A stretch of 62,947 bases of DNA, filler included, from Collodictyon triciliatum (GCA_043381765.1; 9 parts of 9 records of this genome joined end to end with filler, not necessarily neighbours in it), one strand, 5' to 3'. Shown: positions 594-5,900, counted from the first letter of the whole stretch. The notes: a model not told the origin generated them from the letters alone. Made by a program: numbers and translations.

Positions 594-3500
594 TTATTGT
601 GACAAAGGGTCGAAAGATATTTTCTTTGTTGCAAGATTTTTCATCTGAACTAATTTTTGTTTCATCACACCTGCACGAAAGAGGGGTATGATGAAAGTGA
701 TGGATGAATAATAAAGCAACCAGATCGAGTTCACTCCGATCAATAAGATTGTAATCCACGAATGTGAGTCAAAAAGGGTTGATAAAAGAGAAAGGAAGAA
801 AGACACAAGAATGATGTAAAGACTGGAAAGCTCCATTTGATTTTCAATTTTAGAGTTGAATGGCTTGTATTCTTTTTGCATCCATATCGAGCCCTAATTA
901 TGTAGTAGGATATATATTATGATCAGATATCATTATTTTACAAGTCAAAAAAATAAAATGAAACCTGAATAATTATGACGAGTAATAAGAATGAGATTGC
1001 TGGACTTGTGTAAGGCATCACACTTAGTACAAAGGAAAAGGCGATGCGACGAGCAATAATGACGAATTCCCAGTACTTTAAGCTCTAAATAACGTTAGAT
1101 CATGGTAGCGTCAATAAAAACTTACAAAAAATAACAGGATTTAAATTGATTTCGTTTACCTCTTTGTATGGCAAATATAAAAAACCATAACGTGCTCCTG
1201 GCTCATACCCAGGCCTATTAGTCATGATTCTGACTTTCCAAAAAATAAAAGTAGGCAATCCAACCAAGAAAAGAACAAATACAGGGATAGATATTGCGAG
1301 CAAAAGTTGGTACTCATCAGAAGCTGGGCTACATTGAATCCAAGGCTTAAAATTTAGATACCATTTACTCACACCATCATCGTATACAGTGCACCCAAAG
1401 ACGCCAAATACTTCTCTCGCAACCGAGTAATAGATAAAGAACAAAAGATTCAAGGTGATGAAAACAGCCTGTTGTGATATAAAAAGTATGAGAAACTCAC
1501 ACAATCGACGTAATATTCCAGGTACTAATTTTTTTTATATCCTACAAATTACGATTAGCTTCTCACCTTATTCTGCTTGTGACCATATCCAAAATAGTAA
1601 GTGGCTGAGCCTGCAATTACAAAAAGAGGTATTCTAGAAAAACTGAACAAGAGAGAGATAAATACATCGTCTATCCCAAGTAAACATGAAAGGTTCGGAA
1701 ATTGAACTGAACCAATCGATGAAGATATATCGATAAAACTATTTGTATCATCCGAGAGCACTAATCCGGTGGAAATGATCGATAATGTTTGCATATGGAA
1801 CAAAATGATTCTAAGGTTTGCTACAAAAAATTGTTAGTCTGACTATGATTTATAGGATGGCCAATTAAAAATAACCTGATTTTGATGTCTCTGAAAAATA
1901 GAGATAGCTAATGAACATGCAGAATCCTATCGAACCAATAATCAATGTTACAAAAACTGCATCCTCTTTGCACTTCACACATGGCCTTCCTTGATTTCCA
2001 TGTCCATCCATGCATTTGGAGCATGCATGACCTTCGTATCCCTCTTGGCATAGGTCTACTATTTCAACACTTTTGCTTGCGTTTGAGGCTTTCTTTGGAA
2101 TCGACGCTGTACATGAATCTGGACGTGGACATGGCAGGATTGATTTTACCGAGGTGATATTTGGGGAGGCGTGACAGAATTTCAAAGATGTTCCATCAAG
2201 ACACTCACATTCTCTTGGGCATTGAACACAATTATTTCCAAATCCGAAATACCCTGGTAAGCATTCACAAAACTCAAAATCATAATATTCTGGGTTCAAA
2301 TCAACTTTTAATTCAATTAGCCCAGATTTTGAAACTATCGACGGACACAGGTAGCGTTTTGTTTCGTCTTGTAAATTGTAAGGCGTAGCGTAGCTCATGA
2401 AATCAGGTAGAAAATTCGCCTTTCCGTGATTTATCAATGTGCCCGTTAGTCTTAGATATTCGAGCTTTGAAAATCTGCTGTATGTCTCTGGAATACTTCC
2501 AACAATAGGATTTCCTGTAAGATCAAGAGAGGTCCATCTCAATAGATTTGTGAGGTCGCCAAGCTTGGTGATATTGTTATTTTTCAAACTCAATACTTTC
2601 ATACTAGTGACAAAATCAAATATAAATGAATTCATTTCTCCATAGAACTTATTATCATCAAGCATCAGGTTTTCATAAAAGTATTCATAATTATCTGAAA
2701 CTGGCGAAATAAAGATGCCAACATTCTCGATAAATGAATTATTTCTCAAATCTATCGTGAACAAGTTTTCCAGATTCCAAAAATATTTGGGCATGGTTCC
2801 AGAAAACTGATTGTGTGATAAAATGACTGATCTTAAATCAGATAATTCCTGAAAGTAGTTTGGAATAGTCCCATTCATATAGTTCCATGAAAAATCCATG
2901 TACCGGATTGAAAAGATATTCCAATCTTCTGGGATATATCCAGTGATTTGATTCTCGCTTATGTCCAATCTCTCCAGCGTTTCCAGCTTCAATGTTTGGG
3001 AAAGGGCGGTAAGCTTATTACGGAACAGTACTATTTCCTTAACTTTTGCGCAGTCCTTGAAGTTTGGAACGACACCTTCAATTTGATTATCATACGCAGA
3101 AAAAATCTGAATTTCCCACAGATTCGAGAAGTTTGGAATTGTACCTAGTATATGTCTCTGTGAGATAAAAAAAAAAGTTACCATATAAAATTGAAGACTC
3201 ACCCTTTAGATGGTTTCTGTCTAGATAAATTTCTTCGACCTGAGGAGTGGCTTTAAAGTTTGGAACCGTTCCTAAAAAGTTAGTTTAGAATATGTGTCTC
3301 ATTTTGCATCAAAGAATTAAACTCACCGTTTAGGCGATTATCAGATAGGTCGATGATTTTGAGATTTGGAGTGTCATCAAAATTTGGAATTGCACCTGTA
3401 ATTTATCATTAGTTTTGTATTAACAGTGTATTGAAGAAGATAAAAAATCACCAGTTATTTGATTATTTGAAAGAAAAATCTCCTCAATCGATGTTAAGTT

Positions 3501-5900
3501 ACTGAAATTCGGGACCGTTCCTGGGGTGAAAAAAATCATTAAAAAAATTCCAATGAAATATTTGACAAAAAAATTAACCTCACCATTGAGCTCGTTGTTA
3601 TCAATAAATATATCCAGCAGGTTGATAATAATATTAAAGTCTGGCACACTGCCTATAATATAGAATCAGTATTGCCACCATCACTATATCTGTATTAAAA
3701 TAATCATAGGCCCACCTGTAAGTTGATTCCTTTGAAGGAATATTTGTTGAATTACTGGAATACCACTGAAGTTTGGAATAGTTCCTTTCATAAAAGAAAA
3801 AAGTTAGTCACCGACTCATTATTCTATTATTTTTTCCTTTATCCGATTCAAAGGACTAATTATTCTATTATATTATTAAACTCACCATTAAGTCGATTAC
3901 TATACAGAAATATCTGTTCAAGCATCGGTGTGCCGCTGAAATTTGGAATCGTTCCTGTGAAAGATGATCAGCATTTCTTTTTGTAAATTTTTTATATACT
4001 ATTCAATCCTACCATCAAGCATGTTTTCAGAGAGAGACAAAGCTTCAACGTTCGGAATATCTTGGAAGTTTGGAATAGTTCCTTTGAAATAAATTAGTAT
4101 ATCATATCAATAATTTAGCTAATTATTATTCAGTTTACCCGTAAGCATGTTGCCGCGAAGGTATATTAACTGAATCTTTGTAATATTATCGAAGATTGGA
4201 ATTGATCCTGTCATTAAATAAAATCAGTAACTAGCTAAATGTAACATAAAGAGAGAAAAACATACCAGTCAGTTGGTTTCCAGTAACTGAGATCCGTTTG
4301 ATATTTGAAATGTTATTGAAGTTTGGAATTGTTCCTAATACATTAATTAGAATTAATGTATGCATGTATTCTATTAAATTACAATGGACCTACCTGTCAA
4401 TTTATTTCCCAAAAGATAAATCCATTCGGCATTCGGAATTTCGGAAAAGTTTGGTATCGATCCTATAATGTGACATTATTACAATGAAGTATGCAACATT
4501 TGACTACATTAAACCTACCGGTCAGTTGATTACTTGAAATATCGATTCTATCTACTTTTGGAGTTTTGTCGAAATTTGGAACCGTCCCTGCATCAAAAAG
4601 TTAGATTTATCATAGAATTTCCCCTCGATAGTGATCGAGCTCACCTATCATTTGATTATTGTAAATATATATTTTTTCGACCTTCGGAATTCCATCAAAG
4701 TTTGGAATCGTTCCTAAGTAGTAATATAGCTTAATGATATATTCCTATTCATATTAGTTTGAAAAGCGTAACAAACCGCGAATTCTAGTTCCATAAAATG
4801 CAAGTAATTGAACATTCGATATTCCCGAAAAATTTGGCAAAGTTCCTGAAAATCTCATTAGTGTATACAGTCATTATATTTTGAAGTATAATAAAAACCT
4901 GAAATTCGATTACTTAAACCGATTCTTAATGTTGTAATAAGAGTGATTTTAGAAAAATCAGGAATGGTTCCCCCCAATCTATTCTTATCTATCGATAAAT
5001 ACTCTGTTTCTGGTATTCCTTGAAAATCTGGAATAGTTCCAGTAATTATATTCCCATAGAGATTCAAATACGAGATTCTAGGAAGGCTAAAGTCTGGGAG
5101 ATTTCCATATATCGAATTGTAATTCAAGTCAAGAGTATTCAAGAACGGTAATTTCTTCAAAATCACATGTAAGGTCCCAATGTCACCGTAAAGATTGTTA
5201 TTCGACATTCGAATTTTAATTATAGGGCAGATATTGCTCTATAGATAATAAAGAGTTAATATTCTGGATGATAAAATAACAGATTTTGAAACTCACGTGA
5301 TATTCCTCGTCTATACAATGCTCATAGCAGCTTATTCCATACCAATCACAAATCTGAATGCTTTCGTTTTTCCACCCACTATTATAAAACCAATTATCGC
5401 CATCAAGTGCATCATAAAGTTGAACAAGAAGATCATATTGATTTTGATACGTAATATCATCAATATCATTGTTAAATTCAGATATAGAACTAGATTTTAG
5501 GGGGTTCTTCTGTTTTGGTAATTGATTTGATTCGCATATATCCATTTGGAGAACTTTTTGTTTGCTCTCAAACTTCCATCGATAATTATTTCCCGCCATG
5601 TATGAATGATACTTATATTGATAGTAACAATCAAGCCCCTCATCTTGACTTTCTTCATCACTCTCTTTAAGCAGATGACACGTATCGTCGTAGTAGCTCA
5701 ACAAAATTTGAAAAGCGTCTTCGACTTTCATTGATAACAGATCATCTCTGGAATATCGACATCTATTTTGGTAATTAAATTGAGATATGGTAATTATGCA
5801 CTTATTGGTGCTATTAACATACCTTTGAAGTGAATGAACAGAATGTATTGACGTTGTCACAAAGGCGATGGCAAAAAATGCAACAAACAGTTTTATGCAA
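594..5900 (-). CDS. LRR receptor-like protein: signal peptide, N-terminal pre-domain, LRRNT cap, many LRRs, Cys-rich region, multi-pass (about 7TM) C-terminus; more than 20 exons
   Basis: LRRNT-like LYDALDGDNW..SGW....ICDWYGISC; plant-type LRRs (LxLxxNxLxGTIPxF); Cys-rich CECLPGYFG...CVQCP and CQEGYEGHACSKC; TM exons with LRIILFHMQ, YGFLYLPYK and PF...ENQMELSSL; stop at 594. The GT-AG splice path was traced across the LRR array; the start codon is uncertain (about 5900-5960). Confidence 0.9.

What the first reader, a model, noticed from the sequence alone, without database searches (positions are those of the whole stretch)
3203..4845. Array of 13 symmetric 69-nt exons, one LRR each: a candidate exon-shuffling receptor repertoire
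Seen: 13 consecutive exons (starting near 4845, 4713, 4587, 4462, 4334, 4207, 4081, 3954, 3784, 3652, 3520, 3395, 3271). Each encodes one 23-aa LRR and is bounded by short phase-1 introns splitting the Gly codon, giving a period of mostly 125-132 bp. The scaffold positions GxIPNF are constant while the predicted concave-face positions vary (VQLLAFYGT, VEKIYIYNN, VDRIDISSN, AEWIYLLGN, IKRISVTGN, IQLIYLRGN, VEALSLSEN, LEQIFLYSN). The flanking LRRs sit in large ordinary exons. Known: one-repeat-per-exon LRR arrays with shuffling have been described for Ectocarpus ROCO proteins. Inference: any exon can be skipped, duplicated or swapped in frame, so this LRR/multi-TM family could be a diversified prey or pathogen recognition system in a protist.
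Basis: partly seen in the sequence, partly recalled or inferred. Interest (0 to 1): 0.8.

Follow-up and report, generated by a model that had tools for sequence, protein, structure and literature searches.

The report
Thirteen single-repeat exons in receptor gene
A protist membrane-receptor gene carries thirteen equal 69-base exons, each coding one leucine-rich repeat; they are real and spliced, but they look like an old, stable duplication, not an actively shuffled repertoire.

Summary
On the minus strand, 13 consecutive exons of exactly 69 nt (4845-3203) each encode one 23-residue leucine-rich repeat. All have AG|G...G|GT borders and split a Gly codon after its first base. One assembled contig from a probable RNA run carries all 13 exons in genomic order with the introns removed.

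They belong to a 22-exon, 1345-residue gene. It encodes a signal peptide, an LRRNT_2 cap, about 28 plant-type LRRs, a Cys-rich stalk and a module of 9-10 membrane helices. That module is distantly related to Pfam PF06011, the fungal Flc/Pkd2 "TRP-like" family. The closest relatives are a large paralogue family in Diphylleia rotans transcriptomes.

The shuffling interpretation is only partly supported. The exons are modular in frame, but they are only 38-71% identical and third codon positions are near saturation. Their introns are no more alike than shuffled sequence, and there are no relic exons. In 56 Diphylleia isoform pairs no whole-repeat indel appeared.

I read it as an ancient tandem exon duplication that is now a constitutive part of a long LRR solenoid. 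It is a new member of a known kind (brown-algal ROCO genes, gonadotropin receptors). Interest is moderate to low.

The parts
5955..5959 (-). Exon 1 (inferred): ATG plus 2 nt. It begins a signal peptide, MHCIKLFVAFFAIAFVTTSIHS.
   Evidence: Model. GT donor and a 54-nt intron. There is no RNA cover here, so this exon is inferred only.
5823..5900 (-). Exon 2 (78 nt): the hydrophobic signal peptide.
   Evidence: AG/GT borders. A hydropathy peak covers residues 2-20. No RNA cover.
5297..5762 (-). Exon 3 (466 nt): N-terminal domain and the LRRNT_2 cap (...CDWYGISC...).
   Evidence: Pfam LRRNT_2 scores 23.2 bits against a cut-off of 20.7. The region aligns to the N-termini of the Diphylleia proteins.
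4899..5238 (-). Exon 4 (340 nt): the first five LRRs. It ends in the G of a split Gly codon.
   Evidence: Pfam LRR_1 and LRR_4. The RNA contig covers 4898-5069. Model.
4777..4845 (-). Array exon 1 (gene exon 5), 69 nt, GTLPNFSGISNVQLLAFYGTRIR.
   Evidence: Its inclusion in the RNA contig follows from the contig's length.
4645..4713 (-). Array exon 2, 69 nt, GTIPNFDGIPKVEKIYIYNNQMI.
   Evidence: The RNA contig carries one extra T after 4671, at depth about 5.
4519..4587 (-). Array exon 3, 69 nt, GTVPNFDKTPKVDRIDISSNQLT.
   Evidence: RNA joint 4461->4518.
4394..4462 (-). Array exon 4, 69 nt, GSIPNFSEIPNAEWIYLLGNKLT.
   Evidence: RNA joints 4461->4518 and 4335->4396.
4266..4334 (-). Array exon 5, 69 nt, GTIPNFNNISNIKRISVTGNQLT.
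   Evidence: RNA joint 4206->4265.
4139..4207 (-). Array exon 6, 69 nt, GSIPIFDNITKIQLIYLRGNMLT.
   Evidence: RNA joints 4080->4138 and 4206->4265.
4013..4081 (-). Array exon 7, 69 nt, GTIPNFQDIPNVEALSLSENMLD.
   Evidence: RNA joints 3953->4012 and 4080->4138.
3886..3954 (-). Array exon 8, 69 nt, GTIPNFSGTPMLEQIFLYSNRLN. It is followed by the one long intron (101 nt).
   Evidence: RNA joints 3783->3885 and 3953->4012.
3716..3784 (-). Array exon 9, 69 nt, GTIPNFSGIPVIQQIFLQRNQLT. With exon 8 it forms the most similar pair (71% nt identity).
   Evidence: RNA joints 3651->3715 and 3783->3885.
3584..3652 (-). Array exon 10, 69 nt, GSVPDFNIIINLLDIFIDNNELN.
   Evidence: RNA joints 3519->3583 and 3651->3715.
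3452..3520 (-). Array exon 11, 69 nt, GTVPNFSNLTSIEEIFLSNNQIT.
   Evidence: RNA joints 3392->3449 and 3519->3583.
3327..3395 (-). Array exon 12, 69 nt, GAIPNFDDTPNLKIIDLSDNRLN.
   Evidence: RNA joints 3270->3326 and 3392->3449.
3203..3271 (-). Array exon 13, 69 nt, GTVPNFKATPQVEEIYLDRNHLK.
   Evidence: RNA joints 3142->3201 and 3270->3326.
1876..3144 (-). Exon 18 (1269 nt): ten more LRRs, the Cys-rich stalk (CECLPGYFGF...C..C...) and the first membrane helix.
   Evidence: Pfam LRR_8 at 1.6e-16 and a weak DUF7630 match. It is 38-39% identical over its full length to Diphylleia proteins P0001-P0003. RNA contigs cover most of it.
1567..1820 (-). Exon 19 (254 nt): membrane helices. The intron before it (1821-1875) is seen both spliced and retained.
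   Evidence: (records 2 and 3).
1160..1468 (-). Exon 20 (309 nt): the most conserved part of the membrane module (FGVFGCT...WYLN..PWI.CSP...RYGFLYLPYKE).
   Evidence: RNA joint 1467->1566. phmmer gave 75 hits at E<=1e-3 among 1.84 billion representatives.
965..1084 (-). Exon 21 (120 nt): membrane helices.
   Evidence: RNA joints 1084->1160 and 892->964. Model.
594..893 (-). Exon 22 (300 nt including the stop codon): the last membrane helices and the C-terminal tail.
   Evidence: The RNA contig covers 610-892. Model.

Best explanation
The region is the middle of an expressed, intron-rich gene of 22 exons and 1345 residues, lying on the minus strand at about 5959-594. The gene encodes a surface protein. 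Its parts, in order, are a signal peptide, an N-terminal domain, an LRRNT_2 cap, about 28 plant-type LRRs of 22-29 residues, a Cys-rich stalk, and a module of 9-10 membrane helices. That module is distantly related to Pfam PF06011, the fungal Flc/Pkd2 'TRP-like' putative channels.

Thirteen central LRRs each lie in a 69-nt exon with phase 1 at both ends. The most likely origin is repeated tandem duplication of one [LRR exon + short intron] unit that sat between today's exons 4 and 18. Unequal recombination would have driven this, and it happened long ago. Since then the copies have diverged to near saturation at silent sites, while the solenoid scaffold (G, P, F, the L/I/V core and N) stayed under purifying selection.

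Today the 13 exons are spliced together constitutively into one long LRR solenoid. Its variable concave face presumably binds an extracellular ligand (prey, microbe or matrix) and passes the signal to the membrane module.

Shown: the exons, their phase, their splicing, the domain order and the divergence. Inferred: the duplication history, ligand binding and any channel or signalling activity.
For: Exons and borders.

Splicing: one contig of run X1 holds all 13 exons in order, with GT..AG joints printed for 11 of the 14 array introns.

Domains:
- LRRNT_2 passes its cut-off, and the LRR families are strongly matched.
- The AlphaFold2 model of the Diphylleia homologue P0127 has pLDDT 91.9. It shows an LRR solenoid, a beta-rich stalk and helices. 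Its best PDB matches are plant LRR receptor ectodomains at E about 1e-11.

Membrane module:
- Exon 20 finds only 75 proteins at E<=1e-3 among 1.84 billion representatives.
- Of 50 of these hits scanned, 22 carry LRRs, 6 carry DUF7630 and 5 carry PF06011.
- P0198 (38.6 bits) and P0175 (28.9 bits) pass the PF06011 cut-off of 28.5. Seven of 10 short members hit it at E<=0.01, always on profile positions of about 225-414.

Old age of the array:
- Exon identity is 38-71%, and 0.59 for neighbours against about 0.55 for other pairs.
- Third-position identity is 0.34-0.45 against a random 0.28.
- Introns are not above shuffles, and there are no relic exons.
- Only 6 of 13 units have their best partner inside the gene; the other 7 have it in Diphylleia proteins.

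Shared gene structure with Diphylleia:
- Truncated Diphylleia isoforms run into 'V...' read-through exactly at the window's intron sites Q|GSIW and LPYxx|.
- One 12-residue deletion starts at the Gly of an LRR unit. That is what an alternative acceptor after a phase-1 intron would produce.
Against: - The tool only guesses that run X1 is RNA. The splicing evidence is one contig at depth about 5. Three of its joints were not printed. It carries a 1-nt insertion in array exon 2 relative to the window.
- Contigs cannot show minor isoforms, so 'constitutive' rests on absence.
- The flanking 23-residue units U3, U18 and U19 are only slightly less like the 13 than the 13 are like each other (0.37-0.40 against 0.43 amino-acid identity). 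The tree-like history of the duplication is therefore unresolved.
- The window protein's own membrane exon gave no PF06011 hit, so the link is transitive.
- The membrane-only model (P0162, pLDDT 85.7) has no convincing PDB match.
- The first two exons have no RNA cover.
Confidence: 0.72

Rival explanations
1. Combinatorial alternative splicing. The 13 symmetric exons are skipped in varying combinations, so one gene yields many LRR ectodomains. This has been reported for brown-algal ROCO genes.
For: Every exon is 69 nt with phase 1 at both ends, and every join restores Gly. The ROCO LRR exons (72 bp, phase 2) have multiple splice variants (PMC11378527, sections 11 and 15). Intron retention does occur elsewhere in this gene (1821-1875). 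One Diphylleia isoform shows alternative acceptor use at an LRR boundary.
Against: The only assembled transcript holds all 13 exons. The one odd joint, 3778->4951, has non-canonical ends and 21 matching letters. It belongs to another contig that shares only the GTIPNF-coding motif. None of 56 Diphylleia isoform pairs in 11 gene groups shows an indel of one or more 23-residue units. Both tests have low power.
Confidence: 0.12
2. Ongoing genomic exon shuffling or gene conversion among paralogues. Exons are exchanged, duplicated or lost on short time scales, giving a fast-evolving repertoire.
For: LRR number differs widely between family members: spans from cap to stalk are 515-890 residues in single-cap forms. 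A second, truncated family member lies 15 kb away. The window gene has 17 strict GxIP[ND][FL] units against 1-10 in the 17 relatives examined.
Against: Exon copies are 38-71% identical, with silent sites near saturation. Introns are unalignable. No relic, antisense or intronic LRR exon exists in 63 kb. Such relics are a hallmark of the Ectocarpus case (PMC3341825, passage in section 15). No paralogue genomic DNA could be obtained.
Confidence: 0.06
3. Parallel intron gain. An originally intron-less LRR block acquired introns independently at the same Gly codon of 13 repeats.
For: The neighbouring LRRs of the same subtype (U3, U4, U18, U19) have no introns between them. All introns are short and of the genome's usual size.
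Against: Fourteen gains at the identical codon position and phase is unparsimonious. The introns share no sequence, so a recent burst of one inserted element is excluded. Exon ends do not share a fixed proto-splice motif, as the sequence shows. A Diphylleia isoform hints that the same intron position exists there.
Confidence: 0.05

Closest known systems
Brown-algal LRR-ROCO genes (Ectocarpus, Saccharina): arrays of single-LRR exons (PMC3341825; PMC11378527)
   Same: One LRR per exon. All exons have one length that is a multiple of three and one phase, arranged in long tandem arrays. The variable residues lie on the concave face. These genes were proposed as recognition receptors.
   Different: The ROCO exons are 72 nt in phase 2, and the proteins are cytoplasmic with ROC-COR GTPase domains. 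Those arrays show relic and antisense exons, exon-number differences between recent duplicates, splice variants and PAML signals. Here the exons are 69 nt in phase 1 and the LRRs are extracellular and plant-type. There is no ROC-COR, no relic exon, only old divergence and a single observed isoform.
Vertebrate gonadotropin (LH/FSH) receptor genes, as cited in PMC11378527 section 15
   Same: An LRR ectodomain built from similar-sized in-phase exons, about one repeat each. It is joined to a multi-helix membrane domain encoded largely by one big exon. The structure is interpreted as ancient exon duplication and is now constitutive.
   Different: The introns there are phase 2, and the membrane part is a rhodopsin-type 7TM. 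Here the introns are phase 1. The membrane module is PF06011-like, with no significant GPCR fold match.
Plant LRR receptor ectodomains (BRI1, FLS2, MIK2, PSKR, HAESA)
   Same: An LRRNT_2 cap and 23-24-residue GxIPxxL-type repeats. These are the best structural matches of the homologue model, at E about 1e-11.
   Different: There is no kinase domain and no single-pass anchor. Instead there is a Cys-rich stalk plus 9-10 membrane helices.
Pfam PF06011 'TRP' family (yeast Flc1-3, fission-yeast Pkd2; PMC6727746 and PMC9727806, seen as search listings with the start of each abstract)
   Same: A multi-helix membrane module. Family members P0198 and P0175 pass the Pfam cut-off, and many others hit the same profile half below the cut-off.
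   Different: The window protein itself does not reach the threshold. The ectodomain is an LRR solenoid with a Cys-rich stalk, which is not the fungal N-terminal domain. Channel activity is untested.

Membership tests
Single-LRR symmetric exon array (structural class shared by ROCO and gonadotropin-receptor genes) | Each repeat lies in its own exon, with constant exon length divisible by three and the same intron phase on both sides. | tested here: met
   13 of 13 exons are 69 nt with phase 1 at both ends and AG/GT borders.
Dynamic exon-shuffling repertoire in the sense of Ectocarpus ROCO (PMC3341825) | Relic, non-coding or antisense repeat exons, and near-identical exon copies that indicate recent rearrangement. 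| tested here: not met
   nhmmer with the 13-exon profile finds only the 13 exons plus 3 flanking LRRs of the same gene in 63 kb on both strands. The highest exon identity is 71%. Introns are not above shuffles.
Dynamic exon-shuffling repertoire in the sense of Ectocarpus ROCO | Exon number or order differs between recent paralogues or strains. | not testable with these tools
   No genome is held for this window. Two metagenome scans found no related locus. The metagenome runs X2 and X3 cover only short pieces outside the array.
Dynamic exon-shuffling repertoire in the sense of Ectocarpus ROCO | Alternative splicing of the LRR exons. | tested here: inconclusive
   One contig holds all 13 exons. 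Zero of 56 Diphylleia isoform pairs show a whole-repeat indel. Contigs and Trinity sets miss rare forms.
Dynamic exon-shuffling repertoire in the sense of Ectocarpus ROCO | Diversifying selection (dN/dS > 1) at concave-face positions. | tested here: inconclusive
   Concave x positions are the most variable (2.0-3.1 bits), but third positions are near saturation (0.34-0.45 against 0.28 random). No valid dS can be obtained.
ROCO proteins | A ROC-COR GTPase tandem domain. | tested here: not met
   No ROC or COR family appears in the Pfam scans of the window exons or of the homologues.
Plant-type extracellular LRR domain | An LRRNT_2 cap followed by 23-24-residue LRRs with a GxIPxx[LF] second half. 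| tested here: met
   LRRNT_2 scores 23.2 bits against a cut-off of 20.7. LRR_8, LRR_1 and LRR_4 are far above their cut-offs. The homologue model matches plant LRR-RK ectodomains.
LRR receptor kinases or receptor-like proteins of plants | A single-pass anchor, with or without a cytoplasmic kinase. | tested here: not met
   The gene ends in a multi-helix membrane module with no kinase domain.
Pfam PF06011 TRP (Flc/Pkd2-like) | A score above the curated cut-off (28.5 bits) on the membrane module. | tested here: inconclusive
   Window exon 20 gave no PF06011 hit. Its relatives P0198 (38.6 bits; phmmer E 5.6e-4 to the window exon) and P0175 (28.9 bits; E 1.9e-8) pass. P0005, P0176 and six further members are below the cut-off on the same profile region.
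LRR-containing GPCRs (LGR type) | A rhodopsin-like 7TM fold behind the LRRs. | tested here: inconclusive
   The best Foldseek rows for the membrane-only model are class B/A GPCRs at E 0.18-0.7 with TM-scores below 0.25. VIA-align gives at best Z 8.4 on generic helical chains.

The most novel reading that the evidence does not exclude
The window gene and its Diphylleia relatives could form a lineage-specific family of receptor-channels. In them a plant-type LRR solenoid would gate or regulate a Flc/Pkd2-like membrane module. The phase-1 single-LRR exon arrays would be used, at low frequency or under induction, for exon skipping or copy-number change, tuning recognition of prey or microbes. That would be a second, independent origin of the brown-alga-like 'LRR exon cassette' strategy in a deep-branching heterotrophic protist.
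Probability: 0.1. Interest if true: 0.7.

Novelty: new member of a known kind. Interest (0 to 1): 0.35.

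Why it matters
The locus is a clean, transcript-supported example of tandem exon duplication building an LRR solenoid. It comes from a eukaryote whose nearest database relatives are Diphylleia rotans sequences, a lineage with almost no described nuclear gene structures. 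My searches found no paper on LRR genes of Diphylleia and none on an LRR fused to a Flc/Pkd2-type module.

It also documents a small family that appears undescribed in the papers searched: LRR, then Cys-rich stalk, then a PF06011-like membrane module. Exon 20 finds only 75 hits among 1.84 billion representative proteins. That family could be tested as a surface sensor.

It does not, on present evidence, reveal a new diversification mechanism. The symmetric exons explain how repeat number could change over evolutionary time. They do not show a working shuffling system.

Tried and rejected
- Whole-genome search for paralogues: no genome is held for this window.
- Related genomic loci in JGI metagenome contigs: a profile query and a single-protein query both ended with no tblastn-confirmed relative. 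A first attempt failed because the alignment was too divergent.
- RNA holders: no listed holder is on record as RNA. X1 is only a guessed RNA run.
- Parts of the gene without contig cover (5184-5959) say nothing.
- The joint 3778->4951 in X1 was rejected as exon skipping. It has TA..TT ends and 21 matching letters, with long loose ends on both sides, so it is another transcript that shares the GTIPNF-coding motif.
- Repeat-by-repeat orthology with Diphylleia proteins: best matches pile up on the most consensus-like unit and show no colinearity, so the test is uninformative.
- dN/dS among the 13 exons: abandoned because silent sites are saturated.
- Higher-order block duplication: the identity matrix shows no off-diagonal pattern.
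- Fold of the membrane module: Foldseek against the PDB gave no match at E<=0.001. VIA-align over 48,161 chains gave at best Z 8.4 on generic helical chains. phmmer of P0162 against PDB sequences gave 0 hits at E<=10. This shows neither a new fold nor a different one.
- ESM Atlas leads (Ephrin_rec_like/TRP clusters, score 0.93-0.94) were used only as a pointer to PF06011.
- Taxonomic placement from the neighbouring kinase ORF: best identity was 37%, to plant RLK-type kinases, which is not informative.
- Rfam scan of the window: no family at gathering score.
- Earlier findings of this scan: nothing relevant.
- Supplementary tables of the two ROCO papers were not seen. They may hold exon-level selection results that would sharpen the comparison.

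Full report
OBSERVATION

Reading the minus strand of 2400-6000 shows a run of short coding blocks that all start GGAAC.ATTCCAAA.TT. Each is 69 nt and translates to a 23-residue unit, GxIPNF....L..I.L..N.L.. A fourteenth look-alike at 3144 is simply the start of the next, large exon. All 13 exons end in G and begin with G plus one base, so the intron always sits after the first base of a Gly codon.

The same open pattern occurs 14 times within 3100-4900 on the minus strand. It occurs 4 times in the rest of the 63-kb window on both strands. Shuffled windows give 2.7 hits in total. Tandem Repeats Finder does not report the array, because the copies are too diverged.

THE GENE

Six-frame reading, homologue-guided borders and contig joints give a 22-exon model. 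The CDS is 4038 nt and encodes 1345 residues. Every intron is GT..AG and 53-101 nt long.

The parts of the protein, in order:
- a hydrophobic signal peptide (exons 1-2; inferred, with no RNA cover);
- an N-terminal domain and an LRRNT_2 cap (23.2 bits against a cut-off of 20.7);
- five LRRs in a 340-nt exon;
- the 13 single-LRR exons;
- a 1269-nt exon with ten more LRRs, a Cys-rich stalk and the first membrane helix;
- four exons with the remaining membrane helices.

Hydropathy shows about 8-9 strong segments after residue 990. It is the only LRR gene in the window. A fragment of a second family member, with only the N-terminal domain and cap, lies at about 21740-21030 and runs into a masked stretch.

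TRANSCRIPT EVIDENCE

One public run (coded X1) holds a third of the sampled words. The tool labels it 'RNA?', which is a guess. When its contigs were laid on the gene, a 1304-nt contig covered 2910-3142 and 4898-5069, with the introns between removed.

Ten of the 14 array introns appear as joints with CT..AC ends on the + strand, which is GT..AG on the gene's strand. An eleventh appears as a slightly shifted alignment. Three joints were not printed. The contig length equals 233 + 13x69 + 172 = 1302 plus two extra letters, so all 13 exons are present in genomic order.

Three introns of the membrane part are confirmed in the same way. Intron 1821-1875 occurs both retained and removed.

A joint 3778->4951 has non-canonical ends and only 21 matching letters, with long unmatched tails. 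It comes from another transcript that shares the GTIPNF-coding motif, presumably a paralogue. It is not exon skipping.

Two freshwater metagenome runs hold short pieces that are identical or nearly so. None spans the array.

AGE OF THE ARRAY

- Pairwise nucleotide identity of the 13 exons is 38-71% (mean 56%). Neighbours average 0.59, against 0.54-0.59 at the other spacings with at least two pairs. The best pair is the adjacent exons 8 and 9 of the array.
- Amino-acid identity averages 0.43.
- Third-position identity is 0.45 at scaffold residues and 0.34-0.35 elsewhere, against 0.28 expected from composition. Silent sites are therefore close to saturation, and dN/dS among the copies is not measurable.
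- The 14 introns align no better than shuffled introns (mean score -0.004 against -0.050, SD 0.149). A nucleotide profile of the 13 exons finds nothing else in the window, in introns or on the opposite strand, apart from three flanking LRRs of the same gene.
- Only 6 of the 13 units have their best-scoring partner inside the gene. The other 7 match a unit in a Diphylleia protein at least as well.
- The flanking intron-less units of the same 23-residue subtype are only slightly less like the 13 than the 13 are like each other.

Together this describes an old set of duplicates held in shape by selection on the solenoid scaffold. It does not describe a recently shuffled array.

RELATIVES

The large exon finds full-length relatives at 35-39% identity, all EukProt Trinity proteins of Diphylleia rotans. 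The rest of that list is generic LRR proteins of plants and bacteria that match only the repeats.

The most conserved membrane exon (exon 20) was scored against 1.84 billion representative proteins. It found only 75 hits at E<=1e-3, and 39 at E<=1e-10. Of ten hits looked up, eight are again Diphylleia. One is from Anaeramoeba ignava. One is a cluster whose named members are from prasinophyte algae. No hit is near-identical, so this gene is not in those protein sets.

Family members differ greatly in ectodomain length. The span from the cap to the Cys-rich stalk is 515-890 residues in single-cap forms, and some members have two to four cap-plus-LRR cassettes. Repeat number therefore does change on evolutionary time scales.

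DIPHYLLEIA ISOFORMS AS A PROXY TEST

I aligned 56 isoform pairs within 11 Trinity gene groups. No indel of one or more whole 23-residue repeats was found. The length differences are truncations.

Five truncated isoforms diverge into a short 'V...' tail exactly where the window gene has its introns, at Q|GSIW and LPYxx|. That pattern indicates retained GT-introns at conserved positions.

One isoform lacks 12 residues (GPIPNFCCIPNL) beginning at the Gly of an LRR unit, and it resumes at a Val. This is what an alternative acceptor gives if a phase-1 intron precedes that repeat. It hints, from protein data only, that the intron position of the array also exists in Diphylleia.

THE MEMBRANE MODULE

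The window exons give no significant Pfam family beyond the LRRs, apart from weak DUF7630. An ESM Atlas look-up pointed to Ephrin_rec_like/TRP clusters.

Pfam scans of relatives then gave PF06011 'TRP' repeatedly on profile positions of about 225-414:
- 5 of 50 members at E<=0.001;
- P0198 at 38.6 bits and P0175 at 28.9 bits, both above the 28.5 cut-off;
- 7 of 10 short members at E<=0.01;
- P0005 at E 0.14.

PF06011 holds yeast Flc proteins and fission-yeast Pkd2. From the search listing I saw only the start of the abstracts of PMC6727746 and PMC9727806. They describe Pkd2 as a putative force-sensing TRP channel at the plasma membrane and say its calcium permeability and mechanosensitivity were examined. 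The title of PMC9727806 states that membrane stretching activates its calcium permeability.

AlphaFold2 models of two relatives are confident. P0127 has pLDDT 91.9 and shows a solenoid, a beta-rich stalk and a helical bundle. P0162, which is membrane module only, has pLDDT 85.7. The solenoid matches plant LRR receptor ectodomains at about 1e-11. The membrane module has no convincing PDB match.

MECHANISM, AS FAR AS IT CAN BE COMMITTED

The array most likely arose by serial unequal recombination that duplicated one LRR exon with its intron, between what are now exons 4 and 18. All 14 introns share one codon position and phase, which duplication explains and independent gain does not. The copies then diverged.

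The protein is best read as a surface sensor. A long, curved LRR binding surface sits on a disulfide-rich stalk, which is joined to a Flc/Pkd2-like membrane module that may conduct ions or signal. Ligand, gating and oligomeric state are unknown.

COMPARISON AND NOVELTY

One repeat per in-phase exon is established for two groups:
- Brown-algal ROCO genes have 72-nt exons in phase 2, with relic exons, paralogue differences, splice variants and positive selection (PMC3341825, passages; PMC11378527, abstract and sections 11 and 15).
- Gonadotropin receptors are cited for this in PMC11378527, section 15.

That phase 1-1 modules dominate shuffled extracellular domains in animals is my recollection of Patthy's work, not a result of any call here.

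The present case shares the architecture but differs in exon length, phase, LRR class, cell location and partner domain. It lacks every tested sign of dynamic rearrangement. I therefore file it as a new member of a known kind.

The literature searches found no paper on LRR genes of Diphylleia, and no Diphylleia nuclear-genome paper among the 12 of 39 hits listed for 'Diphylleia, genome, intron'. They found none on an LRR fused to a Flc/Pkd2-type module. These searches cover only the held library.

VERDICT

Interest is 0.35. The boldest reading still open is an inducible exon-cassette receptor-channel family, with a probability of about 0.1.

Noticed in passing
window 21740-21030 (minus strand), running into the masks at 20925-21024: This is a second copy of the family's N-terminal domain plus LRRNT cap (...QICSWYGIECSRSCSSEEYTV). 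It is 37% identical to the main gene's exon 3. No LRR exon follows it: beyond the mask lies an unrelated multi-helix ORF. It could be a gene fragment, a pseudogene or a short secreted form.
   Followed up: partly
window 18820-20610 (minus strand): A 597-residue open frame with many hydrophobic segments and no Pfam family at E<=0.001.
   Followed up: no
window 44751-45797 and 43536-44297 (minus strand): A protein-kinase domain (Pfam 3e-50) whose best database matches are plant RLK/Pelle-type kinases, at up to 38% identity. Beside it are two MIB_HERC2 repeats.
   Followed up: partly
window 1821-1875: The 55-nt intron between exons 18 and 19 occurs both retained (contig record 2, depth 12) and removed (record 3) in run X1. 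Retention would end the frame just after the first membrane helix.
   Followed up: partly
Diphylleia proteins P0123, P0134, P0135, P0142, P0151, P0220: Truncated Trinity isoforms diverge exactly at the window gene's intron positions in the membrane module. One isoform lacks 12 residues starting at the Gly of an LRR unit. Intron positions seem conserved between the two organisms.
   Followed up: yes
window 6741-6914 and 8825-9200: Long simple repeats, (TTTTTG)n and (AAGAAAA)n, lie upstream of the gene. Read on the minus strand, the first gives a K/N/Q/T-rich open frame.
   Followed up: no
window 6915-7014, 13928-14027, 20925-21024 and onward, about every 7 kb: Pairs of 44-N runs recur at a regular spacing of about 7000 bp, alongside a few longer N runs. 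They look like masking or scaffolding gaps, not biology. One of them cuts the second family member.
   Followed up: no
window 4671 (array exon 2) in the contig of run X1: The transcript contig carries one extra T relative to the window, at depth about 5. The other differences are three single-base changes (1626, 2417, 2978). This is either an assembly error or a strain difference, and the extra T would shift the frame if real.
   Followed up: no
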